64,000 nt of DNA from Escherichia phage vB_EcoS_VAH1: the sequence record MK373792.1, one strand, 5' to 3'. Below are positions 19,835 through 33,745 of the stretch, piece by piece. The position numbers and the translations under genes were made by a program. The number at the start of each line of letters is the position of its first letter. Position 1 is the first letter of the stretch. The notes beneath the pieces were generated by a model. The model was not told where the DNA came from, did no database searches, and saw only the letters and a list, made by a program, of their open reading frames with translations.

Positions 19835-19910
19835 GGTAGTTAGTAGTGGATTTGAACCACTGTAGTCGCTCCGTATGAAGGAGGTGCATAACCACTCTGC
19901 CAACTAACTA
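19835..19910 (-). tRNA. tRNA-Met type (anticodon CAT)
   Basis: Acceptor AGTTAGT/ACTAACT, T-arm AGTGG-TTCAAAT-CCACT, loop TTCATAC, encoded CCA. Confidence 0.6.
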
Positions 19911-20005
19911 TTATGTTTTACTAGGCTAAGTAAGTATTCTTTATACTCTTTAGACCAACTAGCTTTTTTAAACTTTCCTGGACGCATAGTCTTAATTCCT
20001 AGATT

Positions 20006-20082
20006 TGGTGCTCCGGGAGGGATTTAAACCCCCGATCTCTCGGTTATCAGCCGAGTGCTTTAGATCGCTAAGCTACCGAAGC
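20006..20082 (-). tRNA. tRNA-Ile (anticodon GAT)
   Basis: Anticodon arm CTCGG-CTGATAA-CCGAG; T-loop TTTAAAT; CCA encoded. Confidence 0.6.
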
Positions 20083-20097
20083 ATTAAAATATTTACA

Positions 20098-20388
20098 TCA
20101 CATACTGTCTAGGTAAGAAGTATAATGGAATTTAGTTTCTCCAGTCTTATCTACTTCTACCTCAGTTCGTGGTACTTGACGAACCACACCATGAATTATC
20201 TTATAACGGATGCCTTTAGCTGGTTCATGATCTTTTGGAAATACTTGTTTAACCGTCACTACTTTATATTCTTCACGCGGTGTTAACACTACTACTTGAT
20301 CACCTTCTTTGATTTTCCAAGAAGATGGAAATTCATAGGTATACCTTTGGCCACCAGTTTGGAATACTACAGAAAGATAACGTTTCAT
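20098..20388 (-). CDS. hypothetical protein
   Basis: 96-aa ORF with promoter cassette at ~20395-20460. Confidence 0.4.
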   Translation of the reverse strand: MKRYLSVVFQTGGQRYTYEFPSSWKIKEGDQVVVLTPREEYKVVTVKQVFPKDHEPAKGIRYKIIHGVVRQVPRTEVEVDKTGETKFHYTSYLDSM

Positions 20389-20418
20389 TTGGTTTCCCTC
20401 TCATTAATTTATATAAAT

Positions 20419-20447
20419 ATTATAACAAGAAATAAGAGAGAATGCAA
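20419..20447 (-). promoter_or_regulatory. T5-type early promoter
   Basis: Minus strand TTGCAT - 17 nt - TATAAT before 20098..20388. Confidence 0.55.
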
Positions 20448-20463
20448 ATGAATTTTTAAATTT

Positions 20464-20537
20464 GGTGCTCCCACCAGGAATCGAACCCGGTTCAGATGCT
20501 TACAAGGCAACTGCATCGCCAGCAATGCTTTAGGAGC
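20464..20537 (-). tRNA. tRNA-Thr (anticodon TGT)
   Basis: Acceptor GCTCCTA/TGGGAGC, T-arm CCGGG-TTCGATT-CCTGG, loop CTTGTAA. Confidence 0.55.
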
Positions 20538-20704
20538 GATAATCCCGTTATTTCAACGGGATTTCTTTTTCAATAACAGGAGACTTATCAGTCATAACTG
20601 TCATAGCCAACTGCTGAAGAAACTCGAAAGTTAGCTTTAAGCGTTCTTCGCCTAATTCAACCTCAACGTATTTCTTTTGTTTGTCAACCCTTAATTTTAG
20701 GTTA

Positions 20705-20926
20705 TCAGCCATCTTCGGATTCTCGTTGCTCGGCTACTGCTAGCCAGTCTGGTAAAAGAAACTTAGTACGAAACTCTTCATACGTTTCTTCTGGATAAAA
20801 GCTAAAACCCCCTTTCTCATCATTCAAGATAACAGAGCCGTCAGTTTGTTCATATGCTCGATAGGTTTCCCCAATAACAATAACTCGTTTATCGGTACTT
20901 TTATTACGAAACTCAAAAACGTGCAT
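20705..20926 (-). CDS. hypothetical protein
   Basis: 73-aa ORF between tRNAs. Confidence 0.35.
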   Translation of the reverse strand: MHVFEFRNKSTDKRVIVIGETYRAYEQTDGSVILNDEKGGFSFYPEETYEEFRTKFLLPDWLAVAEQRESEDG

Positions 20927-20942
20927 AACGTTTCCTTAAAGT

Positions 20943-21018
20943 TGGAGCGGCTAGAGGGAATCGAACCCTACTCAGCGAGGCTTGGAAGGCCTGCGACACA
21001 ACCCGTGTGCTTAACCGC
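20943..21018 (-). tRNA. tRNA-Gly (anticodon TCC), tentative
   Basis: Acceptor GCGGTTA/TAGCCGC, T-loop TTCGATT, loop CTTCCAA. Confidence 0.5.
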
Positions 21019-21026
21019 TTATTGTT

Positions 21027-21104
21027 TGGCAGGGGATATTGGATTTGAACCAATGATCTCGACTTCAAAGGCCGAAGCTTTAGGCCAAGCTAAGCTAATC
21101 CCCA
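21027..21104 (-). tRNA. tRNA-Gln (anticodon TTG), tentative
   Basis: Anticodon arm TCGGC-CTTTGAA-GTCGA; T-loop TTCAAAT; 1-72 mismatch. Confidence 0.5.
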
Positions 21105-21110
21105 ATTGTT

Positions 21111-21186
21111 TGGCAGAAGGTAGTGGATTCGAACCACTGATCAGGATTTCAGAGACCCCAGCCTTAACCGACTTGGCTAACCTTCT
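21111..21186 (-). tRNA. tRNA-Gln (anticodon CTG), tentative
   Basis: Acceptor AGAAGGT/ACCTTCT, T-arm GTGG-TTCGAAT-CCAC, loop CTCTGAA. Confidence 0.45.
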
Positions 21187-21745
21187 TCTTAATACTTTTT
21201 GGATCTTTACCTGTTAAGGATTTATAGCGTTTACGTAGTCCGTTATCGGATAATCCTAACTCTTTTGATGCTTTAACCCATGAATAGTTTATTACCCAAT
21301 ATTCTATTTGCTCTGCTGTAATATCAGGGCTACTCTTTGGTTTACAATCAAAACAAGTTTTAGATGAAGAATTTATTTGTTTATTACAATTAGGGCATTT
21401 ATTACCGCCTATTGTATGCCCTCTTTCAACTGTAGTTTTTATTCTATGATCTTGCTTGGTCATGACTACTAGATTATCTAAGGAAAAATTCAATTTATTC
21501 CTATCTTTGTGATCCACTTCTAGCTCAGACTCTAGCGAAGGTAGATCTTTAAATACTCTAGCTAGTAATCTATGTAATACAATAGAGACATTCTTTCCCT
21601 GCTCATAGAATGTTACAAAAGGATACCCTGCACTACCTAAATGATGCGTAAGTAATTTATTACTCTTGGTAGAGTAAACTTCTCCATATGGAGAGATTAA
21701 GTATTCAGGGTATTCCGGAATTGCTTTGAAATTCTCTAATTTCAC
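21164..21745 (-). CDS. HNH homing endonuclease with C-terminal module shared with 28692..29375
   Basis: HRLLARVF...EVDHKDRNKLNFSLDNL HNH core; C-terminal ~45 aa near-identical to the 28692 ORF. Confidence 0.7.
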   Translation of the reverse strand: MKLENFKAIPEYPEYLISPYGEVYSTKSNKLLTHHLGSAGYPFVTFYEQGKNVSIVLHRLLARVFKDLPSLESELEVDHKDRNKLNFSLDNLVVMTKQDHRIKTTVERGHTIGGNKCPNCNKQINSSSKTCFDCKPKSSPDITAEQIEYWVINYSWVKASKELGLSDNGLRKRYKSLTGKDPKSIKKKVSQVG

Positions 21746-21746
21746 C

Positions 21747-21986
21747 TTAGTCTACAGCGTCTGGTTCTGCTGGCTGAGATACAGCAGGCTGTTCTAGTGT
21801 ATCTGGTGCTGATACAGAGAAAAGAGCTTGTAATGCTGCAATATCACGCTCGTAAGTATCAATACGAGTAGTAAGAGTATCTACCATCTGTTTATGATAG
21901 GCTAAGTTATTCTGAGATTCATCTCGAAGAGTTTGCAGTTCTGCAAGACGTGTTAACATAATTTCACTAATTAAAGCATTACTCAT
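21747..21986 (-). CDS. small coiled-coil protein
   Basis: 79-aa ORF. Confidence 0.35.
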   Translation of the reverse strand: MSNALISEIMLTRLAELQTLRDESQNNLAYHKQMVDTLTTRIDTYERDIAALQALFSVSAPDTLEQPAVSQPAEPDAVD

Positions 21987-22176
21987 TTGTTTCTCCTAAA
22001 TTTTCCGGTTCTTCTAAACGTTTGCCTTCATGATCTACTCGAATAACTCCGCATCCTTCGCAAATCACAACTGCACCATAACCTTCTTTGACTTCGGCTT
22101 CTGTAATCAAACCAGAAAGATCACCAGTATCTTTACCCCACATATCAATGGAGCATTGTTTGCAGAAATCAGCCAT
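21979..22176 (-). CDS. small zinc-ribbon-like protein
   Basis: CKQC...CEGC pairs. Confidence 0.35.
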   Translation of the reverse strand: MADFCKQCSIDMWGKDTGDLSGLITEAEVKEGYGAVVICEGCGVIRVDHEGKRLEEPENLGETNE

Positions 22177-22201
22177 ATTTTATTTCCTATTTAAGTTAAT
22201 T

Positions 22202-22278
22202 TGGGGTGGCTAGTGGAATTCGAATCCACATAGGCCTGATTCACAATCAGGATCATTAACCAATTATGATATAGCCAC
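22202..22278 (-). tRNA. tRNA-His (anticodon GTG)
   Basis: Acceptor GTGGCTA/TAGCCAC, T-arm GTGGA-TTCGAAT-TCCAC, arm CCTGA-TTGTGAA-TCAGG. Confidence 0.6.
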
Positions 22279-22515
22279 AATTGAAAACTCGCAGGGTTAG
22301 CGAAACCATCCTCAATTAGCATGTTCTATAATACTAATCAAGTTATCTCCTATTGCACGCAGCTCAAGACGAGTACGAATTTTCAATTGTGGCGGCTCTC
22401 AGAAACTCTTCTATTCTAGCCTCAGAAGCTTACCCCCGAACGCATGTCGGGAAAGTCTTTCCAAGCGCATCAAATAGCACCGTTACACTTTGAGCCATTG
22501 ATGTATCAAGGAATA

Positions 22516-22638
22516 GAAGGACTTGAACCTTCATGAGTTAGACCATATAACTCAACCGCTTTTAAGGTATATTTCTAGGAGTGAATGTTCCTAGTAAACC
22601 TATTCGGCAGTCCCGTCTACCAATTCCGGCATACTCCA
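22516..22638 (-). other. tRNA-Leu-like D-arm (GGAATTGGTAGAC) and T-arm (GAAGG-TTCAAGT-CCTTC) about 45 nt too far apart; disrupted or insert-containing tRNA
   Basis: Both motifs match E. coli tRNA-Leu but no acceptor pairing or normal anticodon arm could be built. Confidence 0.3.
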
Positions 22639-22645
22639 AGAATTT

Positions 22646-22819
22646 TTATAAACCAGCAGAAGCCTCATTTAAAGCATCAACAATAGCCTCACGCTGGGTC
22701 ATTCCATACCCGGTGGAGTCTAGGTGAGGCAAATAGGCTGCCCATCCATTATCTGTTTCATGAAGACATGCTTTAAATTTTTTACCATCCTTCATTGTTA
22801 CAGTAACTGTTTTGCTCAT
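22646..22819 (-). CDS. small protein (57 aa), possibly HicB/UPF0150-like; not in ORF track
   Basis: ATG with AAGGAAG RBS; MSKTVTVTMKDGKKFKACLHETDNGWAAYLPHLDSTGYGMTQREAIVDALNEASAGL. Confidence 0.35.
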   Translation of the reverse strand: MSKTVTVTMKDGKKFKACLHETDNGWAAYLPHLDSTGYGMTQREAIVDALNEASAGL

Positions 22820-22839
22820 AAGACTTCCTTATAGTTAAT

Positions 22840-22929
22840 TGGCAGAAGATAATGGAGTCGAACCATCACCGTATCACTACAGCGGGCTGGTTTTCAAGAC
22901 CAGTTACGTACCACTACGTCCTATCTTCT
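22840..22929 (-). tRNA. tRNA-Ser (anticodon TGA), type II
   Basis: Acceptor AGAAGAT/ATCTTCT, arm CTGGT-CTTGAAA-ACCAG, long variable arm, T-loop TTCGACT. Confidence 0.6.
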
Positions 22930-22942
22930 AGTATTTATTATA

Positions 22943-23290
22943 CTAATAGTCACTCGTACTAGTGAAATCTTCTACTTTTCCACAAATTTTACAAGTCCTA
23001 CGATGATAGTAGGTAATTTTTACTTTAGACCAGCCATCGTGATCATTACCTAGGTTTTCTGTTGCTCCCCAAGTATGGGAACACTCATTTTCAATTTGCT
23101 TAGTAAGAGCGTTATAGCGAGTATAAAACTCCTCCTGGGCAATAGCAAACTCTTTCTGTAGTTTATCACGAGCAATAATAGCACGTTCCAGATATGTTAA
23201 ATCGGGCATTCCAGCTTTTTCAGCAGCATCTATAATCTTATCTTCATCTAAAGATGCTAAAAACTCTAGAGCTTTATCTTTTGCTAACAT
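22943..23290 (-). CDS. hypothetical protein with C-terminal Cys pairs
   Basis: 115-aa ORF. Confidence 0.4.
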   Translation of the reverse strand: MLAKDKALEFLASLDEDKIIDAAEKAGMPDLTYLERAIIARDKLQKEFAIAQEEFYTRYNALTKQIENECSHTWGATENLGNDHDGWSKVKITYYHRRTCKICGKVEDFTSTSDY

Positions 23291-23310
23291 TATTATTACC
23301 TCAAGTGTTT

Positions 23311-23400
23311 GGCGGAAGAGGAGAGATTTGAACTCTCAAGCCGTTTTACCAGTCAGCCACTTTCCAAGCGGTTTTCGTCGCCAATTCGATTTGCTCTTCC
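23311..23400 (-). tRNA. tRNA-Ser (anticodon GGA), type II, tentative
   Basis: Acceptor GGAAGAG/CTCTTCC, T-loop TTCAAAT, loop TTGGAAA. Confidence 0.45.
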
Positions 23401-23434
23401 AATAATAAGATGATGCCTCTATCACACCAGGCAG

Positions 23435-23512
23435 TTACGCCTCACTGGGATTCGAACCCATTAAAACAGCTCAACCGAGATAGTAGGTTTAATTTACTCT
23501 GACCATCAAATT
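23435..23512 (-). tRNA. tRNA-like element, identity unresolved
   Basis: Canonical T-arm GGG-TTCGAAT-CCC at ~23446-23462, but acceptor pairing and CCA not found. Confidence 0.3.
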
Positions 23513-23589
23513 TGGTGCGTGACAAGGGATTCGAACCCTCAAAACCCGACTTCTAAGGACGGTATGTATGCCAATTCCATCAATCACGC
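23513..23589 (-). tRNA. tRNA, anticodon loop CTTAGAA (TAG) in a type-I frame; identity uncertain
   Basis: Acceptor GCGTGAT/GTCACGC, T-arm GAGGG-TTCGAAT-CCCTT, CCA encoded. Confidence 0.45.
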
Positions 23590-23594
23590 GTATT

Positions 23595-23668
23595 TGGTGG
23601 AGAAAGAGGGAGTTGAACCTTCGTCTTCTGCGTGCAAAGCAGATGTTCTACCATTAAACTATATCTCC
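23595..23668 (-). tRNA. tRNA-Ala (anticodon TGC)
   Basis: Arm TCTGC-TTTGCAC-GCAGA perfect; T-loop TTCAACT. Confidence 0.6.
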
Positions 23669-23960
23669 AAATTCTTTAGTTTACTAAGGCTATTAGCTCG
23701 GCGTAACTATAGCACCTTCGCTTCGAGCGGAAGGAACTACGTCATCTCGCAAACCCAATACACTATTCAGTTGCCGCTGAATCTAGTGGACTAATCTAGA
23801 ACCTCTCCTAAATAGTAGGGATCGTGCTTTTTGGCAGCCAGTCCTAGGTCGAGCTAATACCTTAGTGAACTATGATGAGGATTTCTCCTCATCAATTTAT
23901 ATAAATATTATAACAAGAAATTAAGCATTAAGCAACTGCGTTTTTGAAATTTCTTGGACT

Positions 23961-24034
23961 TGGTACTCGGTGATAGAATCTAACTATCGCAACCGCCGTG
24001 TAAAGACTGGGTTCTCCCATTAAACTAACCGAGC
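23961..24034 (-). tRNA. tRNA-like element with non-canonical T-loop (TTAGATT); possible pseudo-tRNA
   Basis: Good acceptor GCTCGGT/ACCGAGT and T-stem GATAG/CTATC, poor anticodon stem. Confidence 0.3.
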
Positions 24035-24041
24035 AAAAATT

Positions 24042-24119
24042 TGGTGGATTGCCTGGGATTCGAACCCAGAACTGACGGATTAAAGGTCCGCTACTCTTAT
24101 CCAGTTGAGCTAGCAATCC
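24042..24119 (-). tRNA. tRNA-Lys (anticodon TTT), tentative
   Basis: Perfect acceptor GGATTGC/GCAATCC, T-arm CTGGG-TTCGAAT-CCCAG, loop CCTTTAA. Confidence 0.5.
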
Positions 24120-24583
24120 AAATTCTCTACTAATAGTTTGAAAGCGTCTAACAGAGGTACTTCAAACCATTCTCCTGATACTTTGTAGTCTTTCAGAAGA
24201 TTATGTAATGCTTTTTCAGTTCTTCTCTTGTCCGAGGAGAATCTAAAATGGTATAACTTGTAATCACGATAGGGCGAATATGTTTGATAACTAGACAGTC
24301 TTTCATTTACGTCTACTGTCATACCTATCTTATAGAGTCCAGGCCATGCTGGGTTACCTATTACATATACAAACCCTTCTGTTATAGGGATTTTATGCTC
24401 CCTTTTATACTTCAGCAGGTTTAACGCTGCCATTCTATAACAGAACTTAAACTCTGAGGATTTTAGTTTACCTTCTTTACCAGATATTTCGTTATACTTC
24501 TCCATATACCTACGTATTAAGGAGTCAGTAATAGTAAAGTGCTTTGGAAGATCCAGGGCTTGAAGTACACTGTTAATAAGCAT
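24110..24583 (-). CDS. GIY-YIG-like (T5orf172/MUG113-type) domain protein
   Basis: GFVYVIGNPAWPGLYKIGMT...ERLSSYQTYSP...EWF; paralog of 26337..26855. Confidence 0.55.
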   Translation of the reverse strand: MLINSVLQALDLPKHFTITDSLIRRYMEKYNEISGKEGKLKSSEFKFCYRMAALNLLKYKREHKIPITEGFVYVIGNPAWPGLYKIGMTVDVNERLSSYQTYSPYRDYKLYHFRFSSDKRRTEKALHNLLKDYKVSGEWFEVPLLDAFKLLVENLDC

Positions 24584-24835: not shown

Positions 24836-24841
24836 ATTGTT

Positions 24842-28691: not shown

Positions 28692-29375
28692 TCATCTACT
28701 TTTCTTAATACTTTTAGGATCTTTCCCTGTTAGGGACTTATACCTTTTCCTTAATCCAGTATCAGATAATCCTAGTTCTTTGGAGGCACGAATCCAGGAA
28801 TATTTAGATACCCAGTACTCTATTTGCTCCACAGTAATATCTGGATTTATAGTTATCTCTTTAGGAGTACATGATTTACAGTGTGTTGCTCTTGAACTAA
28901 TTTCGCAGTGACAAATAGCACACGTATTTACAGCTCTTTCTGTATACCTGCCAATATTTTTGCCTGCATGAGTAGGTGTTAGTGCATGGCAATTTGGACA
29001 TAGGAGGGCTAAGTTATCCCATTCATTATTATAGTGATTTCCATCCTTGTGTTCGAGTTCTAAAGGAATTGGTTTGTCTAACCAACTTTCTAAGCCACAA
29101 CTCTCACACTTATGTGGTTTTAGCCCCTCGTTAAGAATTTTATTCTTTAGTTTATAGGAAGAAATAGGGCTGCCGTTATATAAATACTCTGTTGCAGACT
29201 TATATTTATTATCATACTGCCTATTCGCAGGAATAACTACTATTCCTAGTTTTCCTAAATATGCTTCCAAAGTGTTCGAGGAGCAGGATAGCATTCTTGC
29301 TATCTCTGCTTTAGATTTTCCCTGAGCTATCCACTGAGCTATTTCTTCCTTTCTATCTAGTATATCAGTTCTCAT
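28692..29375 (-). CDS. HNH homing endonuclease with N-terminal HTH and shared C-terminal module
   Basis: HKCESCG...LELEHKDGNHYNNEWDNLALLCPNCH; C-terminus near-identical to 21164..21745. Confidence 0.7.
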   Translation of the reverse strand: MRTDILDRKEEIAQWIAQGKSKAEIARMLSCSSNTLEAYLGKLGIVVIPANRQYDNKYKSATEYLYNGSPISSYKLKNKILNEGLKPHKCESCGLESWLDKPIPLELEHKDGNHYNNEWDNLALLCPNCHALTPTHAGKNIGRYTERAVNTCAICHCEISSRATHCKSCTPKEITINPDITVEQIEYWVSKYSWIRASKELGLSDTGLRKRYKSLTGKDPKSIKKSR

Positions 29376-29398
29376 AGTTTATGACTTTCTAATTAAGC

Positions 29399-29476
29399 TG
29401 GTGGCTCCCCGAGGATTCGAACCTACGTACCTTCCAGTTATGAGCTGGGTGCTCATACCATATGAGCTTGAGAACC
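29399..29476 (-). tRNA. tRNA-Met type (anticodon CAT); third CAT tRNA, could be the Ile2 (lysidine) species
   Basis: D-arm GCTC...GAGC, arm CCCAG-CTCATAA-CTGG, T-arm GTAGG-TTCGAAT-CCTCG. Confidence 0.55.
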
Positions 29477-29482
29477 AGAATT

Positions 29483-29571
29483 TGGCGGAAGAAGTGGGAA
29501 TCGAACCCACAAGGCTATATTTCAAACCGACAGATTAGCAATCTGCTGCAATACCGTTATGCTATTCTTCC
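29483..29571 (-). tRNA. tRNA-Ser (anticodon GCT), type II
   Basis: Perfect acceptor GGAAGAA/TTCTTCC, arm GCAGA-TTGCTAA-TCTGT, long variable arm. Confidence 0.6.
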
Positions 29572-29592
29572 GAATTTATAAGATATATTATA

Positions 29593-30162
29593 TTAGAAAT
29601 TTAGCTTCATGGCAAGAAAATTTTTCAAGTTTTCGGTAGACATCTCATCCACATCTATAGGAGAAACAAACCCATTTAATTGTCTAGCAAACTTTTCACC
29701 AGCAGGATCATTATCCCCAACAGCTACCAATTTAAAAGGTAGTAATTTCAATTGCTTTAACAATGCTTTTCCGGGGGAAGAACCCAACATTGCCAGGGCT
29801 GGATAACCAGCGTTATGTAACGCAACTGCCTTAAATACAGATTCAGCAATCAATACTACTTTTTCATCTCCATTGAGAGTTTCTAGTCCCCATACACACT
29901 GTGTAGTAGAATAAGTAAAATATCTAGCTTCAAGGGGGCACTTACCATGACCTTTTGGAGCAGAAGGATTATAAGTCTGATAGCCTCTCAACATCCCAGA
30001 GAAGTCATACAATGGGACTGTTAGCCATCCTTCCGGGCTTAACCAGCAATGATATTTATCTGTATCAAACCCTCTAGATAAGAGATGTTCTGTTAGTTCA
30101 TCAACAGTCATACTAGATTCCTCTCTCAAATTTATAAATATATTATACAGAGAATTTAGCAT
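29593..30162 (-). CDS. stand-alone Toprim-domain protein
   Basis: VVLIAESVFKAVALHNAGYPALAMLGS...KLVAVGDNDPAGEKFA matches DnaG-type Toprim; no zinc finger or helicase part. Confidence 0.5.
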   Translation of the reverse strand: MLNSLYNIFINLREESSMTVDELTEHLLSRGFDTDKYHCWLSPEGWLTVPLYDFSGMLRGYQTYNPSAPKGHGKCPLEARYFTYSTTQCVWGLETLNGDEKVVLIAESVFKAVALHNAGYPALAMLGSSPGKALLKQLKLLPFKLVAVGDNDPAGEKFARQLNGFVSPIDVDEMSTENLKNFLAMKLNF

Positions 30163-30280
30163 TCAAGCAATTGAATTTTTTAACTTTTTAGAGGAAAATC
30201 ACAGGATGCTTAAGGGTAGCAGGTAAGTGGTCAGGACCGAAATTTGTGACCCCACTAAAAATCTGGGGGCAATTTTTAAA

Positions 30281-30320
30281 GACCCCTTGACATTTTCGCT
30301 GGGGTAGTGTAAAGTATATG
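30281..30320 (+). promoter_or_regulatory. sigma70-like promoter for the plus-strand island
   Basis: TTGACA at ~30281, ~17-18 nt spacer, TGn + TAAAGT; AGGAGG RBS before ATG at 30368. Confidence 0.5.
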
Positions 30321-30367
30321 TTATGGATGAGTGATCAAAGAGACACACATTTTCTATATACTAGGAG

Positions 30368-31360
30368 GTGTCAAAAATGACAGAAGAAGTAGCTAAGAGT
30401 CCTGAGACCGTCGCTAGCGTTGCAGCAGAACTGCACCGTCACGAGGAATCAGATAAGAAAAAGTGGGAGAAGGTCAGAGCCTACGAAGAAAAACATCGTG
30501 AACACGATGATGAAGAAGATGACGATGAGCATTGTCATAAATATGGAAAACATAAAATGCAAGAACCAGTAAACGTATTTACTAGTGGCTTCCCTGGCCT
30601 ACTTGGTGGTTACCCAGCAAACGCAAGTGCTTTCGGTGGCGAAGGTATGGGACTATTCGGAGCTATCCTAATCGGTGCTCTATTAACAGGCGGGTTCGGT
30701 GGTTTCGGTGGATTCGGTGGACGTGGTGTAGTTGGTGATGGTACCGCAGTTGATGCAGTACTTCAGAACCAAGATACCGCTAGTATTCTAGCAGCTATTA
30801 ACACTACTCGTACAGAAGCTAACCAGGGTACTGGAGCTGTTTTAAGCGCAGTTAACAATGGTTTTAGCCAGACATCCCAAAACCAGAGCCGTGATACTCA
30901 GTCTGTACTAACTACGATCTATGGTACAGGTGCTAATCTGTCTAATCAGATCTGCCAGGAAACTCGCAACGTTATTCAGGGTCAGTTCGATCTTTCTCGC
31001 CAGATTGATCAATCTTTCGCAGCTAACCAGATAGCTCGTGCACAAGATAAGTTTGATTCTGCACAGATCGCTTTCCAGCAGACTTTACAAACTAATAACC
31101 AGTTTGCCGCTGTTCAGGCTCAGATGTGTGCTAACCAGAACTCTCTGGAACGTCAGATCGCTGAATGTTGCTGTGAACTTCAGACTGCGATCGCTGGTGT
31201 AACTACTGCGCGTATTCAGGATGAGTTAGATGCATGTCGCCTACGTGAAGCAATCGCTGCGGGTAACGGTGCTAACGGTCAGGTAATTAATCAAATCGCT
31301 GTAAGTCTTGGTGCTATCACTCAGACTCTGGCTGGTCTGCAGGCTAAACTGCCGGCTTAA
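30368..31360 (+). CDS. acidic/His-rich N-domain + glycine-zipper TM segment + Gln/Asn/Ala-rich helical C-domain protein; function unknown
   Basis: DDEEDDDEH; GLFGAILIGALLTGGFGGFGGFGG; Q/N/T-rich tail with CCC cluster; codon usage unlike neighbours. Confidence 0.55.
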   Translation: MSKMTEEVAKSPETVASVAAELHRHEESDKKKWEKVRAYEEKHREHDDEEDDDEHCHKYGKHKMQEPVNVFTSGFPGLLGGYPANASAFGGEGMGLFGAILIGALLTGGFGGFGGFGGRGVVGDGTAVDAVLQNQDTASILAAINTTRTEANQGTGAVLSAVNNGFSQTSQNQSRDTQSVLTTIYGTGANLSNQICQETRNVIQGQFDLSRQIDQSFAANQIARAQDKFDSAQIAFQQTLQTNNQFAAVQAQMCANQNSLERQIAECCCELQTAIAGVTTARIQDELDACRLREAIAAGNGANGQVINQIAVSLGAITQTLAGLQAKLPA

Positions 31361-31381
31361 TATTAAGGGGAGGAGCCCATT

Positions 31382-31798
31382 ATGAGTAAATATGGTTTTG
31401 TAAATAACGGACTTAATCAAAGTATGGGCTCCCAGCAGCCCATTCCGGGTCTGGATAACCCCTACTTACAACAATTGCAACAGCGTTTAGCAGAAGCGCA
31501 ACAGATGCAGCAACAACTCCAGCAAAACCCTGGAAGTGTGAGTCCTATGCAAATGATGCAGCAAATGAGCGGGCAGTCGCAAATGCCTCAACAAATGCAG
31601 CAACAGGTGCCGCAGCAGCAAGCTCAGCAGCAAACCCAACAACCGCAGGTTTCTGCGGAAGGACAGGCAGTACTAGCCCTTTTCGAAGACTTCGCAAAGA
31701 CAGAGGATGGTAAGCAGCTTGTATCACTTATGGGTAAGTTTAATAGCTTCTGCCAAAGCCAGGTTGCAAAAGCTCAAAATAGTGGTAATAACTCCTAA
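31382..31798 (+). CDS. Gln/Met-rich low-complexity (prion-like) protein
   Basis: QQLQQRLAEAQQMQQQLQQNP...MQMMQQMSGQSQMPQQMQQQVPQQQAQQQTQQ; GGAGG RBS. Confidence 0.5.
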   Translation: MSKYGFVNNGLNQSMGSQQPIPGLDNPYLQQLQQRLAEAQQMQQQLQQNPGSVSPMQMMQQMSGQSQMPQQMQQQVPQQQAQQQTQQPQVSAEGQAVLALFEDFAKTEDGKQLVSLMGKFNSFCQSQVAKAQNSGNNS

Positions 31799-31807
31799 GG
31801 AGGAATT

Positions 31808-32002
31808 ATGTGTTGCAGAAAATCTGTTTCGTGCTGCCCAATGCCTGTAGCACGTTGTTGCTCTCCAGCAATGTTTACGCAAATACCGGCGTTCAATCCG
31901 TTTGCCTTTAAGCCTACTCTTATCCTGCCCCCTAGAGTAGATTTTCAGTCAAGATTGGCCTCCCGTATGGGTGGTTGCTGTAATAAGAGTATATGGTTCT
32001 GA
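31808..32002 (+). CDS. small Cys-rich protein (CC pairs)
   Basis: MCCRKSVSCCPMPVARCCSP...GGCCNK; AGGAGG RBS. Confidence 0.35.
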   Translation: MCCRKSVSCCPMPVARCCSPAMFTQIPAFNPFAFKPTLILPPRVDFQSRLASRMGGCCNKSIWF

Positions 32003-32018
32003 AGAACCAAACAATAAA

Positions 32019-32053
32019 GCCCCTAAGTCTTTCGACTAGGGGCTTTTCTTTTA
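32019..32053 (+). terminator. rho-independent terminator closing the plus-strand island
   Basis: GCCCCTAAGTC...GACTAGGGGC hairpin followed by TTTTCTTTT. Confidence 0.6.
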
Positions 32054-32060
32054 TCTTAAA

Positions 32061-32097
32061 TACAGAAAAGCCCTGCGCTCTCCAGGAAACGCAGGGC
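32061..32097 (-). terminator. rho-independent terminator for the SPFH gene (convergent)
   Basis: GCCCTGCG...CGCAGGGC 8-bp stem with T-run on the minus strand. Confidence 0.6.
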
Positions 32098-32122
32098 TTA
32101 TTTCAGATGTTACATGCGGGTA

Positions 32123-33070
32123 TTATTTATTACGCATATCCATAATCATTTGGCCATCATAGCCAGTGCCAACCACAGTCTGCGGTACACCACCTTGGTA
32201 TTTCTGAGCACGAATCATTTCAACTTCCAGTTGCTTCCAGCGAATCATCTCAGGAGTAATGGTACGTTGCAACGCGGCGTTAGCTTCAGCTTCTTTCTTA
32301 GCTGCGTACAGTTTGGCATCTGCGTCACGCTCATTGGCAATAGCTTGGTTATTACGAGCTTCGCGATCTGCTTCTGCTTGTTTAACCTTCTGCTGTGCTT
32401 CTTGTTCAACACGAGCCAGTTCAGCTTTCGCAGCATTAACTTGCTCTTCACGAACTTTGGTATTCTGTACCTGTTCCATGATTACCGGTGGCAAAGTAAT
32501 ATCCTGAAGGAATACCTGCTTAACTGTATAACCATATGGGCGTGCATACTCTTCAACTTCCTGTTGAATTGCAGTTTGCAATTGAGCCTGAATTTTAGCA
32601 TCAAACAAATCTTGTGCTTTAGGTACAGACTTACCAAACTCACGAATAGTAGACAGTAATTTTTCAGTTACATATTTATCTAGTGCTTGATCCTGGGTGC
32701 CTGCGTTAATACGGTTAATCGGTGCCTTAGAACCATCAAATTGTAACATAACAGTCAGGTCAACAGTGGATTTAAACTTATCTTGGCTAGGAACCTGAAG
32801 TTTATCTAATTTTACAGCAATATCTTTTGTACTAAAAGTATCGAAAGATGCAAATGGGTTTACAAGATGGAAACCAGGTAATACTGGGTTAGGATCTACT
32901 TTACCTAGAAATGTTTGGGTTTTAACCGTACCATCAGAAACAATAGTATATGAATTAAAAGCTAGGATTAAACCTGCTAAACCAACTACAGCACCAATAC
33001 CCCAACGTTTAATAGTGCGAATTACTTTTTGCTCAGAAGTCAGTTCTTTCATATTTTTAGTATTAAACAT
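32123..33070 (-). CDS. SPFH/Band-7 (prohibitin/stomatin/HflKC-like) membrane protein
   Basis: N-terminal TM (WGIGAVVGLAGLILAF), SPFH-like core, long Ala/Glu/Gln coiled-coil tail. Confidence 0.7.
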   Translation of the reverse strand: MFNTKNMKELTSEQKVIRTIKRWGIGAVVGLAGLILAFNSYTIVSDGTVKTQTFLGKVDPNPVLPGFHLVNPFASFDTFSTKDIAVKLDKLQVPSQDKFKSTVDLTVMLQFDGSKAPINRINAGTQDQALDKYVTEKLLSTIREFGKSVPKAQDLFDAKIQAQLQTAIQQEVEEYARPYGYTVKQVFLQDITLPPVIMEQVQNTKVREEQVNAAKAELARVEQEAQQKVKQAEADREARNNQAIANERDADAKLYAAKKEAEANAALQRTITPEMIRWKQLEVEMIRAQKYQGGVPQTVVGTGYDGQMIMDMRNK

Positions 33071-33104
33071 ATATTTCCTTTGTTTTAGTTACAGTTAATA
33101 AAAT

Positions 33105-33179
33105 TGGCCGAGGTGACAGGATTCGAACCTGCATAAAGGAATTTAGAAGACTCCTGCCTCTCCCTTAGACTACACCCCG
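33105..33179 (-). tRNA. tRNA-Arg (anticodon TCT)
   Basis: Acceptor CGGGGTG/CACCTCG, arm GGAGT-CTTCTAA-ATTCC, T-arm GCAGG-TTCGAAT-CCTGT. Confidence 0.55.
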
Positions 33180-33669
33180 TTTAAGTATTTTTAAGAACTC
33201 TCGTAAAAACTCTTAAAAATACAGACGATACCGGGAGAGTCATAAGTCTCACTCATTAAGTATTTCAAGACAAAATACAGTAACGTCTATTATTTTCCAG
33301 TTTAAGTCAGGGTGACTTAGTGGTTATGTCCTGCGGTATATTGAGGACTCGGTTAGGCTTTGGGGTCATGACTTCCCGCCTTTTGCTGCTACTCAACAGG
33401 AGTTATCGCGAATTACCTGTGCTATTGTGCACCATTAGTGACATCTCTCATGTCAGCATTTCCCACTTTGTGGATAGCTTGAAAAACTACTCCGATATGG
33501 AGAAAGAACTTCACTATCCTAGAATACCTTCTAAAGTTCTTCTTTAGCCTGGACATAGTTAAATCGTAATAAAACTATTCAGCAGACTGGTTGGTTAGTC
33601 TGGAACCAACTACCGCGTGGTTTAGGCAGTGCGCAACTAACCTCGGAAGCTTTTACGTTAAAAGCATCA

Positions 33670-33745
33670 GTTATCCAGTTCTTACCGACCGTAGGATTCG
33701 AACCTACATCTTCCACCAGTTACGGCTTGATAATACCAATTATAC
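33670..33745 (-). tRNA. tRNA-like element, identity unresolved
   Basis: T-arm GTAGG-TTCGAAT-CCTAC; acceptor GCCGTCC/GGTCGGT with one mismatch; no clean anticodon arm; no CCA. Confidence 0.3.

What the first reader, a model, noticed from the sequence alone, without database searches (positions are those of the whole stretch)
19835..33745. Large tRNA cluster with several non-canonical tRNA-like elements and embedded nuclease genes
About 22 cloverleaf tRNAs (three CAT species, two Ser, His, Asp, Cys, Tyr, Glu, Ala, Pro, Arg, Ile, Thr and others) all lie on the minus strand, most with encoded CCA. Interspersed are elements that have a canonical T-arm or acceptor stem but no proper anticodon arm (23435-23512, 23961-24034, 27551-27621, 33670-33745) and a 77-nt species with a TAG anticodon in a type-I frame (23513-23589). 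HNH (21164, 28692) and GIY-YIG-like (24110, 26337) genes sit between tRNAs, fitting the idea that homing nucleases drive rearrangement here.
Basis: partly seen in the sequence, partly recalled or inferred. Interest (0 to 1): 0.55.

Follow-up and report, generated by a model that had tools for sequence, protein, structure and literature searches.

The report
T5-type tRNA cluster, one overlooked RNA
This is the long-known tRNA gene region of a T5/BF23-like phage, and four of the five "odd" elements are already annotated in T5 or BF23 records, but the fifth belongs to a conserved, folded ~100-nt RNA between tRNA-Leu and tRNA-Ser that no record I inspected annotates.

Summary
The window comes from a Tequintavirus (about 94% identical to T5, 94-98% to BF23 here). 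The region 19834-33754 is its early tRNA gene region, annotated feature by feature in AY543070 and NC_042564. I count 25 minus-strand tRNAs, all with encoded CCA. ARAGORN at default settings misses four of them.

The five odd elements:
- 23961-24034 is tRNA-Val(UAC).
- 27551-27621 is T5's tRNA-Trp(CCA), with a reduced D arm.
- 33683-33754 is T5's known pseudo-tRNA, inside "RNAX".
- 23513-23589 is the BF23-type 77-nt tRNA-Leu(UAG). It has a 5-nt variable loop and keeps the E. coli LeuRS identity set. BF23's record says it becomes an effective amber suppressor.
- 23435-23512 is not a tRNA. It is part of the 112-nt Leu-Ser(GGA) spacer, 23401-23512.

That spacer is present in 247 phage records across several Demerecviridae lineages. 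All 24 proposed base pairs hold in 16 distinct sequences, and 7 pairs show compensatory changes. It has no Rfam match and no conserved ORF. In T5 the homing endonuclease gene hegC (F-TflI) occupies its slot.

Pfam confirms the HNH and T5orf172 (GIY-YIG-like) genes. Three of the six insertions or deletions against T5 and BF23 are nuclease genes.

Verdict: a known system, plus one new member of the "tRNA-like stable RNA" kind.

The parts
19834..33754 (-). Whole tRNA gene region of a T5/BF23-like phage (25 tRNAs, 1 pseudo-tRNA, stable-RNA homologues, small ORFs, 4 nuclease-type ORFs)
   Evidence: About 94% identity to T5 over 89% of 19800-33800. Collinear maps to T5 and BF23. Annotation of AY543070 and NC_042564.
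33683..33754 (-). Pseudo-tRNA / tRNA-like domain without CCA, inside the homologue of T5 'RNAX' (about 33180-33817)
   Evidence: Rfam tRNA 35.5 bits. Relaxed ARAGORN gives a poor cloverleaf. No CCA. Flagged as a pseudo tRNA in AY587007 and lies inside rnaX in AY543070.
33105..33179 (-). tRNA-Arg(UCU)
29483..29571 (-). tRNA-Ser(GCU)
29399..29476 (-). tRNA-Ile2(CAU), missed by ARAGORN at default settings
   Evidence: Rfam 38.2 bits, relaxed ARAGORN, position of T5/BF23 tRNAI2.
28692..29375 (-). hegA homologue (T5 F-TflIV): HTH + HNH endonuclease
   Evidence: Pfam GerE/HTH plus weak HNH_3; PHROG HNH family 5e-80. T5 hegA lies at the aligned position.
27714..27801 (-). tRNA-Tyr(GUA)
27631..27705 (-). 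tRNA-Glu(UUC)
   Evidence: One base different from T5 tRNAW. Folds as a cloverleaf. Rfam only 23.1 bits. ARAGORN misses it. Annotated tRNA-Trp in T5 and BF23.
27470..27544 (-). tRNA-Phe(GAA)
26877..26952 (-). tRNA-Cys(GCA)
26337..26855 (-). T5orf172/MUG113-domain ORF (homologue of T5.069); its 3' end overlaps tRNA-Asn by 24 nt
   Evidence: Pfam MUG113 5.6e-16, T5orf172 2.6e-12; phrog_5032.
26283..26360 (-). tRNA-Asn(GUU)
26207..26279 (-). Homologue of T5/BF23 'RNA3' (tRNA-like stable RNA); coordinates by alignment, +/-2
   Evidence: T5 annotation mapped through; fold z = -2.8.
25909..25985 (-). tRNA-Asp(GUC)
25168..25413 (-). Homologues of T5 'RNA2' (tRNA-like, about 25289-25413) and 'RNAIV' (about 25168-25270)
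   Evidence: T5 annotation mapped through. The fold shows a closing stem plus a T arm.
24842..24919 (-). tRNA-Pro(UGG)
24758..24835 (-). tRNA-fMet(CAU)
24110..24583 (-). T5orf172/MUG113-domain ORF, absent from T5 at this site, present in BF23 (ORF trn 2.12.1); overlaps tRNA-Lys by 10 nt
   Evidence: Pfam MUG113 3.8e-19. Gap in the T5 alignment at 24120-24581. Collinear with BF23.
24042..24119 (-). tRNA-Lys(UUU)
   Evidence: ARAGORN at default settings, Rfam 47.2 bits, structure, annotated tRNAV in T5/BF23.
23689..23860 (-). Homologue of T5/BF23 'RNA2H' stable RNA (+/-2)
   Evidence: T5 annotation mapped through.
23595..23668 (-). tRNA-Ala(UGC)
23513..23589 (-). tRNA-Leu(UAG), 77 nt, 5-nt variable loop (type I frame), A73, encoded CCA; identical to BF23 / phage 5 tRNAL1
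   Evidence: The BF23 record notes an 'effective amber suppressor' after the anticodon change.
23401..23512 (-). Whole Leu-Ser(GGA) spacer holding the unannotated structured RNA (folded core 23411-23508)
   Evidence: Covariance model R1 scores 119.5 bits, single copy in the window. 247 phage records. Pair counts. No Rfam match.
23504..23508 (-). Spacer RNA helix P1, 5' strand UGAUG (pairs with 23411-23415 CAUCA)
   Evidence: invariant except one U-A to U.G change.
23479..23487 (-). Spacer RNA helices P1b (CCU) and P1c (CUAUC), 5' strands; they pair with 23416-23423 (GAUAG-AGG)
   Evidence: 4 of the 9 pairs change on both sides between lineages (U-A/C-G, U-A/G-C, C-G/U-A, U-A/C-G); two others change on one side only.
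23446..23460 (-). Spacer RNA helix P3: T-arm-like hairpin UGGG-UUCGAAU-CCCA
   Evidence: stem seen as UGGG/CCCA, CAGG/CCUG, CGGG/CCCG; loop sequence kept.
23426..23445 (-). Spacer RNA helix P4: GUGAGGC-GUAACU-GCCUGGU (7 positions with an internal G.G)
   Evidence: A-U/G-C compensatory change plus G.U variants.
23411..23423 (-). Spacer RNA 3' strands of P1c, P1b and P1 (GAUAG AGG CAUCA)
   Evidence: In two metagenome contigs, homology ends right after CAUCAU.
23310..23400 (-). tRNA-Ser(GGA), identical to BF23 tRNAS2, missed by ARAGORN at default settings
22943..23290 (-). 115-aa ORF inserted between the two Ser tRNAs; absent from T5 and BF23
   Evidence: phrog_36910 3e-80, no Pfam match; alignment gaps.
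22840..22929 (-). tRNA-Ser(UGA)
22280..22640 (-). Homologues of T5 'RNA1' (tRNA-like, about 22497-22640), 'RNAI' (about 22390-22496) and 'RNAIII' (about 22280-22385)
   Evidence: T5/BF23 annotation mapped through. RNA1 fold has a Leu-like D region and a T arm.
22202..22278 (-). tRNA-His(GUG)
21164..21745 (-). hegD homologue (T5 F-TflII): NUMOD4 + HNH_3; its 3' end overlaps tRNA-Gln(CUG) by 23 nt; absent from BF23
   Evidence: Pfam HNH_3 1e-9, NUMOD4 1.4e-6. Aligned to T5 hegD. Gap against BF23.
21111..21186 (-). tRNA-Gln(CUG)
21027..21104 (-). tRNA-Gln(UUG)
20943..21018 (-). tRNA-Gly(UCC), identical to T5 tRNAG1, missed by ARAGORN at default settings
20463..20537 (-). tRNA-Thr(UGU)
20006..20082 (-). 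tRNA-Ile(GAU)
19834..19909 (-). tRNA-Met(CAU)

Best explanation
The region is the early tRNA gene region of a T5/BF23-like phage (Tequintavirus).

Shown here:
- 25 tRNA genes with encoded CCA lie in short arrays on the minus strand. Between them are small ORFs, homologues of the T5 stable RNAs (RNA1, RNA2, RNA3, RNAI, RNAIII, RNAIV, RNA2H, RNAX), two free-standing HNH homing-endonuclease genes (hegD/F-TflII and hegA/F-TflIV homologues) and two T5orf172 (GIY-YIG-like) ORFs.
- Four of the five 'odd' elements are features already annotated in T5 or BF23 records: tRNA-Val(UAC), tRNA-Trp(CCA), the pseudo-tRNA inside RNAX, and the BF23-type 77-nt tRNA-Leu(UAG).
- The fifth element is part of a distinct structured RNA that fills the Leu-Ser(GGA) spacer. 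It has a long interrupted closing stem (P1, P1b, P1c) and an 18-nt junction with the invariant sequence CUGUUUUAA. It also has a T-arm-like hairpin (P3, loop UUCGAAU) and a further hairpin (P4).

Inferred:
- The 77-nt tRNA-Leu is charged by host LeuRS, because E. coli LeuRS reads A73 and the D/T-loop corner rather than the long variable arm.
- The spacer RNA is transcribed within the polycistronic tRNA precursor, from the homologue of T5 promoter P13b.
- It is released by the same cuts that free its neighbours: an endonuclease cut in the AU-rich CCA-AAUUU linker, and RNase P at the 5' end of tRNA-Ser(GGA).
- It then persists as a roughly 100-110-nt tRNA-like stable RNA of the same kind as T5 RNA1-3. 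It is under purifying selection but is dispensable in the laboratory, since T5 replaced it with hegC.
- Its molecular role is not known. My best guess is a tRNA-elbow mimic that engages tRNA-binding factors. This is a weak guess.

Sub-confidences:
- Identity of the cluster and of the four known elements: 0.95.
- The spacer is a selected RNA structure: 0.8.
- It is a processed, stable RNA: 0.5.
- It is an elbow mimic or decoy: 0.15.
For: Cluster identity:
- 645 phage records match; T5 is the best, at 94% identity over 89% of the query.
- The window is collinear with T5 and BF23, and both records carry feature-level annotation.

tRNAs:
- Searches give the set, and all 25 end in an encoded CCA.
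- Gly is identical to T5's and Ser(GGA) is identical to BF23's.
- Trp differs from T5's by one base.

tRNA-Leu:
- It is identical to the BF23 / phage 5 tRNAL1. The BF23 record notes that it becomes an effective amber suppressor after the anticodon change.
- A14, A15-U48, G18G19, A20a and A73 can all be read in the sequence.
- The review PMC9976931 says E. coli LeuRS needs these elements and not the variable arm.
- A second, unrelated 77-nt Leu(UAG) with perfect stems exists in Pectobacterium phage DU_PP_V.

Spacer RNA:
- 247 phage records hold it. They include Tequintavirus, Klebsiella Sugarlandvirus, Erwinia phage KEY and Pectobacterium DU_PP_V.
- On the model-fitted alignment, 18 pairs are 99.3% paired and 0 of 500 shuffles reach the observed covariation score.
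- On a manual alignment, 24 pairs are 100% paired in 375 cells and 7 pairs change on both sides. Sliding the partner columns gives 32-42% paired.
- G.U variants are tolerated, which fits pairing in the minus-strand transcript.
- Its identity to the Klebsiella phage copy is 71%. The flanking tRNAs score 57-74%.
- There is a single copy in the window and none in T5. There is no Rfam hit at E<=10.
- The reading frame stops after 5 codons in the window type (read from the sequence).

Nucleases: Pfam and PHROGs.
Against: - I have no expression, processing or stability data for the spacer RNA.
- Its phylogenetic depth is small: four or five lineages of one phage family. Part of the structure was derived from the same sequences that were then counted.
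- T5, SE19 and JLBYU43 lack the element, and SelmaRatti has lost its 5' half. It is therefore not essential.
- The T-arm-like hairpin is not contiguous with the closing stem. The acceptor/T minihelix that RNase P and other tRNA enzymes recognise is absent, and there is no CCA.
- The downstream neighbour is not always a tRNA. It is an ORF in DU_PP_V, and about 170 nt of other sequence in KEY.
- For tRNA-Leu, PMC6614811 reports that E. coli LeuRS fails to charge a natural type I tRNA-Leu of Streptomyces. The amino acid carried by the BF23-type tRNA is not documented in what I could read.
Confidence: 0.85

Rival explanations
1. The Leu-Ser spacer element is a decaying tRNA gene remnant. It could be, for example, a former third UCN-family tRNA-Ser, or a tRNA 3' half. 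On this view it has no present function and is conserved only because these phages are closely related.
For: - It contains a perfect T-arm consensus, GGUUCGAAUCC.
- It occupies a 'tRNA slot' next to two tRNA-Ser genes.
- ARAGORN in low-threshold mitochondrial mode draws a cloverleaf with a CGA (Ser) 'anticodon' in all three lineages tested.
- The element can be lost without killing the phage: T5, SE19 and JLBYU43 lack it, and SelmaRatti keeps only part.
Against: - Seven pairs change on both sides while staying paired, and none of 375 cells is unpaired.
- Conservation across genera equals that of the functional tRNAs beside it.
- Within Tequintavirus it is 97-99% identical in about 190 records, while the adjacent Leu gene exists in three unrelated alleles.
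- Bacterial-mode ARAGORN gives no consistent call even at 60% threshold.
Confidence: 0.12
2. The element acts only in cis. It would be a structured spacer that guides folding or nuclease processing of the flanking tRNAs in the precursor, and it would be degraded once excised.
For: - It always starts right after a tRNA 3' end, with the same CCA-AAUUUGAUG junction, in every lineage.
- AU-rich single-stranded linkers lie on both sides.
Against: - The upstream tRNA differs between lineages: three Leu alleles, or tRNA-Ala in phage KEY. The downstream neighbour differs too: tRNA-Ser, an ORF, or other sequence.
- T5-type genomes mature the same Leu and Ser tRNAs without it.
- Most other tRNA pairs in this cluster are separated by only 5-9 nt.
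Confidence: 0.2
3. The conservation works at the DNA level. The spacer would be the homing or recognition site of F-TflI (hegC), or a recombination hotspot, and the apparent RNA structure would be incidental.
For: - hegC sits exactly in this slot in 27 records, and the element is absent from the three such genomes I tested.
- Homing endonucleases usually target conserved sequence.
- Recombination breakpoints fall at the edges of the element.
Against: - A DNA recognition site does not predict compensatory double changes in four separate helices.
- It also does not predict strand-specific G.U variants, which would be C.A on the other strand.
- Being a homing site is compatible with also being a functional RNA.
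Confidence: 0.1
4. The 77-nt 'Leu(UAG)' is not a leucine tRNA. Without the long arm it would be uncharged, or charged with another amino acid, which would recode CUA/CUG codons during infection.
For: - E. coli LeuRS is reported to charge only type II tRNA-Leu, and not the natural type I tRNA-Leu(CAA) of Streptomyces.
- The anticodon stem has a U.U mismatch.
Against: - The BF23 record says the identical gene gives an effective amber suppressor. It is therefore processed, charged and used by the ribosome.
- It keeps the whole E. coli LeuRS identity set.
- E. coli LeuRS charges engineered tRNA-Leu variants that lack the variable arm (PMC9976931).
- It lacks the main elements I know for the other anticodon-independent enzymes: no G3:U70 for AlaRS and no long arm for SerRS. 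That rests on my own knowledge of those identity sets.
Confidence: 0.07

Closest known systems
Bacteriophage T5 tRNA gene region (AY543070 / AY587007) and BF23 tRNA gene region (NC_042564), annotated by the Ksenzenko group
   Same: - Same gene order, strand and promoters, and the same stable-RNA and tRNA set, at 94-98% identity.
- The hegA and hegD homologues are present.
- The Val, Trp and Leu tRNAs and the RNAX pseudo-tRNA are the same features.
   Different: - The window is a mosaic. It is BF23-like from Ser(GGA) to Pro (98%), including the 77-nt Leu, the spacer RNA and the T5orf172 ORF at 24110-24583.
- It is T5-like in carrying hegD.
- It lacks T5 hegC and BF23 tRNA-Gly2.
- It has an extra 115-aa ORF at 22943-23290.
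T5/BF23 'tRNA-like stable RNAs' RNA1, RNA2 and RNA3 (function unknown)
   Same: - They lie between tRNA genes in the same transcription units.
- They contain a T-arm-like hairpin.
- Their ends pair into a closing stem.
   Different: - In RNA1-3 the T arm abuts the 3' strand of the closing stem, as in a tRNA. In the spacer RNA a further hairpin (P4) lies between them.
- There is no sequence similarity: covariance model R1 finds only one copy.
- RNA1-3 are annotated as stable RNAs in the T5 and BF23 records. This element is unannotated and untested.
Phage T4 tRNA cluster with the free-standing homing endonuclease SegB (PMC2330249)
   Same: - A nuclease ORF is embedded in a phage tRNA cluster, and its 3' end runs into a tRNA gene.
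- The tRNA region is inherited preferentially in mixed infection.
- That paper proposes that tRNA processing of the transcript limits nuclease expression, and it cites F-TflI and F-TflII.
   Different: - SegB is a classical GIY-YIG enzyme. Here the proven relatives are HNH enzymes (F-Tfl), and the GIY-YIG-like ORFs are of the T5orf172 type with no tested activity.
Type I (short variable loop) tRNA-Leu of Streptomyces coelicolor and of animal mitochondria (PMC6614811; PMC9976931)
   Same: A leucine-anticodon tRNA with a 4-5-nt variable loop that coexists with type II tRNA-Leu and a single LeuRS.
   Different: - This one is phage-encoded and used in enterobacteria, whose LeuRS is reported not to charge the Streptomyces type I species.
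- It keeps A73 and the E. coli D-loop identity elements.
- Alleles of 77, 83, 85 and 87 nt occur at the same locus in related phages.

Membership tests
Tequintavirus (T5/BF23) tRNA gene region | Nucleotide identity and collinear order of tRNAs, stable RNAs, promoters and ORFs with T5/BF23 | tested here: met
   94% identity to T5 over 89% of the query. Block maps to T5 and BF23. Features as annotated.
Canonical tRNA (Rfam RF00005 / ARAGORN), applied to 23401-23512 | Cloverleaf with 7-bp acceptor stem, anticodon arm, T arm abutting the acceptor 3' strand, and CCA or a discriminator end | tested here: not met
   No Rfam hit at E<=10. ARAGORN at default, 80% and 60% thresholds gives nothing consistent. 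No CCA. P4 separates the T-like hairpin from the closing stem.
Canonical tRNA, applied to 27551-27621 (Trp) | Score above Rfam gathering score, or an ARAGORN call | tested here: not met
   Rfam 23.1 bits against a gathering score of 29. ARAGORN does not call it even at 80%.
Canonical tRNA, applied to 27551-27621 (Trp) | Cloverleaf fold, anticodon at the loop centre, encoded CCA, identity elements (CCA anticodon, G73) | tested here: met
   The minimum-free-energy fold is a cloverleaf. CCA anticodon, G73 and a 3' CCA are present. One base different from the tRNAW annotated in T5/BF23. Aminoacylation cannot be tested here.
Canonical tRNA, applied to 23961-24034 (Val) and 23513-23589 (Leu) | Detected by both scanners above threshold, with encoded CCA | tested here: met
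   ARAGORN at default settings. Rfam 47.2 and 47.5 bits. CCA present.
tRNA-Leu recognised by E. coli-type LeuRS | A73, A14, A15-U48, G18G19 and A20a (identity set as summarised in PMC9976931) | tested here: met
   All can be read in the 77-nt sequence with standard numbering. Identity set.
tRNA-Leu recognised by E. coli-type LeuRS | Long (type II) variable arm | tested here: not met
   The variable loop is 5 nt (GUUUU). According to the arm is characteristic of tRNA-Leu but is not an identity element in E. coli.
tRNA-Leu recognised by E. coli-type LeuRS | Actual leucylation and use in translation | not testable with these tools
   The only evidence is the GenBank note for the identical BF23 gene, 'effective amber suppressor'. 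The inserted amino acid is not stated.
T5-type tRNA-like stable RNAs (RNA1-3) | Encoded between tRNA genes in a tRNA transcription unit; folded, with a T-arm-like hairpin and paired ends | tested here: met
   Position. Structure with covariation.
T5-type tRNA-like stable RNAs (RNA1-3) | Accumulates as a discrete stable RNA in infected cells | not testable with these tools
   No RNA data are available. T5, the phage in which stable RNAs were catalogued, lacks the element.
Free-standing HNH homing endonucleases of the F-Tfl group | HNH nuclease domain with a DNA-binding module (NUMOD or HTH) | tested here: met
   21164-21745 has HNH_3 plus NUMOD4. 28692-29375 has an HTH plus weak HNH_3, and a PHROG HNH family at 5e-80.
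Free-standing HNH homing endonucleases of the F-Tfl group | Presence/absence polymorphism between otherwise collinear relatives | tested here: met
   hegD is absent from BF23. hegC is present in 27 records and absent here.
Free-standing HNH homing endonucleases of the F-Tfl group | Site-specific cleavage of the endonuclease-less allele, and gene conversion | not testable with these tools
   [quoted passage not shown] 2004.
GIY-YIG superfamily (T5orf172/MUG113 branch) | Match to the T5orf172 or MUG113 domain above the Pfam cut-off | tested here: met
   24110-24583: 69.5 and 54.7 bits. 26337-26855: 59.3 and 47.6 bits. That these families belong to the GIY-YIG clan is from my own knowledge of Pfam.
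GIY-YIG superfamily (T5orf172/MUG113 branch) | Nuclease or homing activity | not tested
   Indirect only: the 24110-24583 ORF is an insertion relative to T5. The PHROG family is 'unknown function'.

The most novel reading that the evidence does not exclude
The 98-nt folded core at 23411-23508 would be a previously unrecognised functional non-coding RNA of Demerecviridae. It would be a tRNA-elbow mimic released from the tRNA precursor, acting on host tRNA-binding machinery: for example as a decoy for tRNA-targeting defence nucleases, or as a modulator of tRNA processing or modification enzymes. Its gene would also be the natural homing target that F-TflI (hegC) replaced in T5. That would explain why the classical T5 catalogue of stable RNAs missed it.
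Probability: 0.15. Interest if true: 0.6.

Novelty: new member of a known kind. Interest (0 to 1): 0.33.

Why it matters
The cluster itself adds nothing new. T5 and BF23 tRNA regions, their stable RNAs and their F-Tfl homing endonucleases have been annotated for about two decades.

Two points may be worth a specialist's attention.

1. Phage tRNA arrays are now studied as counter-measures to tRNA-cleaving immunity, such as PARIS, retron Eco7 and bacterial Schlafens (papers listed). A conserved, covarying, unannotated RNA sits inside the array of most T5-like phages but is missing from the model phage T5. It is a cheap and testable candidate for a further player.

2. The BF23-type tRNA-Leu is a natural short-variable-loop leucine tRNA working in an enterobacterial host. 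It sits awkwardly with two general statements: that tRNA-Leu carries a long arm everywhere except animal mitochondria (PMC9976931), and that E. coli LeuRS charges only type II tRNA-Leu (PMC6614811).

On the practical side, ARAGORN at default settings misses four working tRNAs here (Gly, Ser-GGA, Ile2, Trp). tRNA counts for T5-like phages in the literature are therefore likely to be underestimates.

Tried and rejected
- Rfam at E<=10 over 19000-35000: nothing at 23401-23512. The other weak hits (plastid UTR families, miRNA families, tRNA-Sec) are tRNA antisense or type II tRNA cross-matches.
- Paralogue search with covariance model R1, filters off, over the whole window and T5: no second copy. 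The hit at 33652-33741 (13.4 bits, E = 1.6) and the CGUAACUG 8-mer shared with the RNAX pseudo-tRNA are at chance level.
- Wider homologue hunts with three IMG/VR pattern scans, one metagenome scan and one GTDB genome scan. They found only Demerecviridae-type contigs. The other pattern matches were unrelated tRNAs or coding sequence. The two bacterial hits are not homologues.
- Single-sequence folding z-scores for the odd elements are unremarkable, -0.2 to -1.4, so thermodynamics alone says nothing.
- The first RNAalifold structure paired U11/C12 with G98/G99. I dropped this in favour of CCU/AGG (P1b), which covaries.
- A protein-coding reading of the spacer is rejected. The ORF annotated over it in Erwinia phage KEY is closed after 5 codons in the window type.
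- Reading the Leu gene as a T5/other chimera (blast homology stops at 23552) is rejected. The whole gene is a different allele, identical to BF23's.
- The promoter consensus scan did not recover the homologue of T5 promoter P13b. I rely on the T5 annotation for it.
- Literature searches for a described RNA in this spacer found nothing. The older subscription and Russian-language T5/BF23 papers are not in the library, so prior description cannot be excluded.

Full report
**What the window is**

A megablast of 19800-33800 against the phage collection finds 645 records. The best is phage T5, at 94% identity over 89% of the query. Block alignment shows the window is collinear with the T5 tRNA gene region. 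It is even more closely collinear with the BF23 tRNA gene region, reaching 98.3% over 23306-24874.

Both records carry detailed feature tables from the group that sequenced them. These list tRNAs, the 'stable RNAs' RNAI, RNAIII, RNAIV, RNA2H and RNAX, and the 'tRNA-like' RNA1, RNA2 and RNA3. They also list the early promoters and the homing endonucleases hegA (F-TflIV), hegC (F-TflI) and hegD (F-TflII).

**Checking the tRNA count**

ARAGORN at default settings gives 21 tRNAs, all on the minus strand. Rfam gives 21 at gathering score, with a slightly different set. Relaxed ARAGORN and homology add four more:

- Gly(UCC) at 20943-21018, identical to T5 tRNAG1.
- Ser(GGA) at 23310-23400, identical to BF23 tRNAS2.
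- Ile2(CAU) at 29399-29476, Rfam 38.2 bits.
- Trp(CCA) at 27551-27621.

That makes 25 tRNAs. All of them end in an encoded CCA.

**The five 'odd' elements**

1. 23961-24034 is tRNA-Val(UAC). Both scanners call it, and Rfam scores it 47.2 bits. Its anticodon stem has one A.G mismatch and one G.U pair, and its T loop is UUAGAUU. It is unusual, but it has an anticodon arm, and T5 and BF23 annotate it as tRNAV.

2. 27551-27621 differs by one base from T5's annotated tRNA-Trp. On its own it folds into a cloverleaf with a 3-bp D stem, a CCA anticodon, G73 and a 3' CCA. It fails the Rfam gathering score (23.1 against 29), and ARAGORN misses it even at relaxed settings.

3. Rfam scores it 35.5 bits and it has no CCA. 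It is 93% identical to the T5 sequence. AY587007 marks that sequence as a pseudo-tRNA, and AY543070 includes it in RNAX.

4. 23513-23589 is indeed a Leu(UAG) tRNA in a type I frame, with the 5-nt variable loop GUUUU.
   - It is not T5's allele, which is 85 nt with a different acceptor stem.
   - It is identical to tRNAL1 of BF23 and Salmonella phage 5.
   - The BF23 record notes that replacing the anticodon with CUA gives an effective amber suppressor, so the molecule is processed, charged and used.
   - Read with standard numbering, it keeps A14, A15-U48, G18G19, A20a and A73. This is the identity set that E. coli LeuRS uses in place of the variable arm (PMC9976931).
   - Related phages carry alleles of 83, 85 and 87 nt at the same locus. 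Pectobacterium phage DU_PP_V has a second, unrelated 77-nt version with perfect stems.
   - Type I tRNA-Leu is otherwise described for animal mitochondria and for Streptomyces coelicolor. E. coli LeuRS is reported not to charge the Streptomyces species (PMC6614811). The amino acid carried by the phage tRNA deserves a direct test, though Leu is by far the likeliest.

5. 23435-23512 is the only element without an annotation. It is treated in the next sections.

**The fifth element: where it occurs**

That unit is the whole 112-nt spacer, 23401-23512, between tRNA-Leu and tRNA-Ser(GGA).

- The spacer is 97-99% identical in about 190 Tequintavirus records, including BF23 and phage 5. Their detailed feature tables leave it blank.
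- It is recognisably conserved in Klebsiella Sugarlandvirus phages, Erwinia phage KEY and Pectobacterium phage DU_PP_V. In all, 247 records hold it.
- IMG/VR, metagenome and bacterial-genome scans found no homologue outside Demerecviridae-type contigs.
- It has no Rfam match at E<=10.
- A covariance model built from it finds one copy in the window and none in T5.
- It is not a gene for a protein. The frame annotated as a CDS in phage KEY closes after five codons in the window type.

**The fifth element: its structure**

RNAalifold and the pair counter support a closing stem, a T-arm-like hairpin and a further hairpin. On that alignment 99.3% of cells are paired, and 0 of 500 shuffles reach the observed covariation score.

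MAFFT misaligned the 5' domain between the two sequence types, so I aligned the 16 distinct sequences by hand. That alignment revealed an extra long-range helix. The full model, in window coordinates, is:

- P1: UGAUG (23508-23504) pairs with CAUCA (23415-23411).
- A 16-nt 5' bulge follows. It is 10 nt in the other sequence type.
- P1b: CCU (23487-23485) pairs with AGG (23418-23416).
- P1c: CUAUC (23483-23479) pairs with GAUAG (23423-23419). In other lineages this helix is CUACUG/UAGUAG, CUGCUG/UAGUAG or CGGCUG/UAGUCG.
- An 18-nt junction follows, ending in the invariant CUGUUUUAA.
- P3: UGGG-UUCGAAU-CCCA (23460-23446). In other lineages the stem is CAGG/CCUG or CGGG/CCCG.
- P4: 23445-23426.

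All 24 pairs are standard pairs in all 375 cells, and 7 pairs change on both sides. Sliding the partner columns by 1-3 positions gives 32-42% paired cells and at most 2 such pairs. Single-side changes give G.U pairs, which fits pairing in the minus-strand RNA rather than in DNA.

Identity between the window and a Klebsiella phage is 71% for the element. For the neighbouring tRNAs it is 57% (Leu), 63% (Ala), 69% (Ser-UGA) and 74% (His).

Caveats: only four or five lineages are available, and the structure was partly derived from the sequences that were then counted.

**How the element compares with a tRNA**

- The order of helices is cloverleaf-like: closing stem, weak junction hairpin, P3, P4.
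- ARAGORN in low-threshold metazoan-mitochondrial mode draws such a cloverleaf in three lineages, with P3 as a 'CGA anticodon arm'.
- In bacterial mode nothing consistent is found, even at 60% threshold.
- There is no CCA.
- The T-loop-like hairpin is separated from the closing stem by P4. In contrast, in T5 RNA1-3 the T arm abuts the closing stem.

I therefore file it as a new member of the 'tRNA-like stable RNA' kind, not as a tRNA.

**Relation to the homing endonuclease hegC**

In T5 the slot between Leu and Ser(GGA) is filled by hegC (F-TflI). The hegC allele occurs in 27 records.

In the three hegC genomes I examined (T5, SE19, JLBYU43) the order is Ala, Leu (85 nt), hegC, Ser(GGA, 94 nt). 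The covariance model finds no element in any of them. Some phages have the T5-type Leu followed by the element (L012-L014).

The element is thus the majority state and, given its presence in other genera, the ancestral one. hegC replaced it.

This also explains why it is missing from the T5-based catalogue of stable RNAs. It also shows that the element is dispensable in the laboratory. SelmaRatti has lost tRNA-Leu and the 5' half of the element. In two metagenome contigs, homology ends exactly after helix P1. That supports the boundaries given here.

**Nuclease genes and rearrangement**

Pfam and PHROGs results:

- 21164-21745 has NUMOD4 plus HNH_3.
- 28692-29375 has an HTH plus HNH.
- 24110-24583 and 26337-26855 carry T5orf172/MUG113 domains. 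These belong to the GIY-YIG clan by my own knowledge of Pfam; no activity has been tested.

Three of these ORFs run into the 5' end of a tRNA gene: hegD by 23 nt, and the two T5orf172 ORFs by 10 and 24 nt. PMC2330249 discusses this arrangement for T4 SegB and the F-Tfl enzymes as a way to limit nuclease expression through tRNA processing.

Against T5 and BF23 the window differs by six insertions or deletions. Three are nuclease genes: hegD (absent from BF23), hegC (absent here) and the T5orf172 ORF at 24110-24583 (absent from T5). The others are a 115-aa ORF at 22943-23290, BF23's tRNA-Gly2, and a small ORF region at 24875-25098.

Identity to T5 falls to 87% and 89% in two blocks next to such breakpoints. 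It remains a correlation.

**Mechanism, with what is shown and what is inferred**

Shown:
- The gene content, the tRNA structures and their CCA ends.
- The conservation and covariation of the spacer RNA.
- Its mutual exclusivity with hegC.

Inferred from the T5 annotation and from general knowledge of bacterial tRNA processing:
- The array RNA2H, Ala, Leu, spacer RNA, Ser(GGA) and onward is transcribed from the homologue of promoter P13b.
- The tRNAs are released by endonucleolytic cuts in the AU-rich CCA-AAUUU linkers and by RNase P.
- The spacer RNA is freed by those same cuts.

Speculative:
- It persists and acts through its T-loop module on tRNA-binding factors.

**Verdict**

The finding describes a real but already well-annotated system. 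Its list of 'non-canonical' elements is mostly a list of known T5/BF23 features. One element turns out to be a conserved, covarying, unannotated RNA that merits a simple experimental test.

Interest is modest at 0.33. The novelty rating, 'new member of a known kind', applies to that RNA. The rest is already known.

Noticed in passing
window 22943-23290 (-), with promoter-like site 22966-22937: A 115-aa ORF (phrog_36910, no Pfam match) lies between tRNA-Ser(GGA) and tRNA-Ser(UGA), which are adjacent in both T5 and BF23. A TTCACT-18-TATAAT promoter-like site lies at its 3' end, just upstream of tRNA-Ser(UGA). Function unknown.
   Followed up: partly
window 23513-23589; loci L007, L012, L004, L022: The Leu(UAG) locus of Demerecviridae holds alleles of 87, 85, 83 and 77 nt, with variable regions of about 15, 13, 11 and 5 nt and unrelated acceptor stems. 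The 77-nt form occurs in two unrelated sequences (Tequintavirus and Pectobacterium phage DU_PP_V). This looks like repeated erosion of the long arm.
   Followed up: partly
window 20943-21018, 23310-23400, 27551-27621, 29399-29476: ARAGORN at default settings misses four tRNAs. Two of them, per the T5 record notes, become amber suppressors after the anticodon change. Published tRNA counts for T5-like phages based on ARAGORN at default settings (the BF23 genome paper, for example) probably undercount.
   Followed up: yes
loci L064 (1424-1537) and L065 (2048-2161), metagenome contigs: The sequence downstream of the spacer RNA is replaced by unrelated DNA starting exactly after ...GGCAUCAU, the 3' end of helix P1. 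This is a recombination breakpoint at the boundary of the element. I did not examine what follows.
   Followed up: no
locus L058 (Escherichia phage SelmaRatti) 737-860: tRNA-Leu and the 5' half of the spacer RNA are deleted. Only the T-arm-like hairpin, P4 and the 3' strands remain (covariance model 50.6 bits). A small reverse-strand CDS is annotated over the remnant.
   Followed up: partly
window 23961-24034: tRNA-Val(UAC) has the T loop UUAGAUU, with A in place of the near-universal C56, plus an A.G mismatch in the anticodon stem. The T5 record says its CUA derivative does not suppress amber codons.
   Followed up: no
window 19452-19895 (-): An ORF with a C-terminal glycyl-radical domain (Pfam Gly_radical 3.4e-18) ends next to tRNA-Met. 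It is a homologue of T5.056, 'putative formate acetyltransferase-related'. The listed GTG start overlaps the tRNA; the real start is probably further downstream, as in T5.
   Followed up: no
window 33683-33754 vs 23426-23445: The RNAX pseudo-tRNA and helix P4 of the spacer RNA share the 8-mer CGUAACUG in their loops, and the covariance model gives a 13.4-bit hit (E = 1.6) at 33652-33741. This is at chance level, but both lie in tRNA-like units of unknown function.
   Followed up: partly
window about 46000: GC skew switches sign from negative to positive near 46 kb. This probably marks the change from minus-strand early genes to plus-strand genes. Not examined.
   Followed up: no
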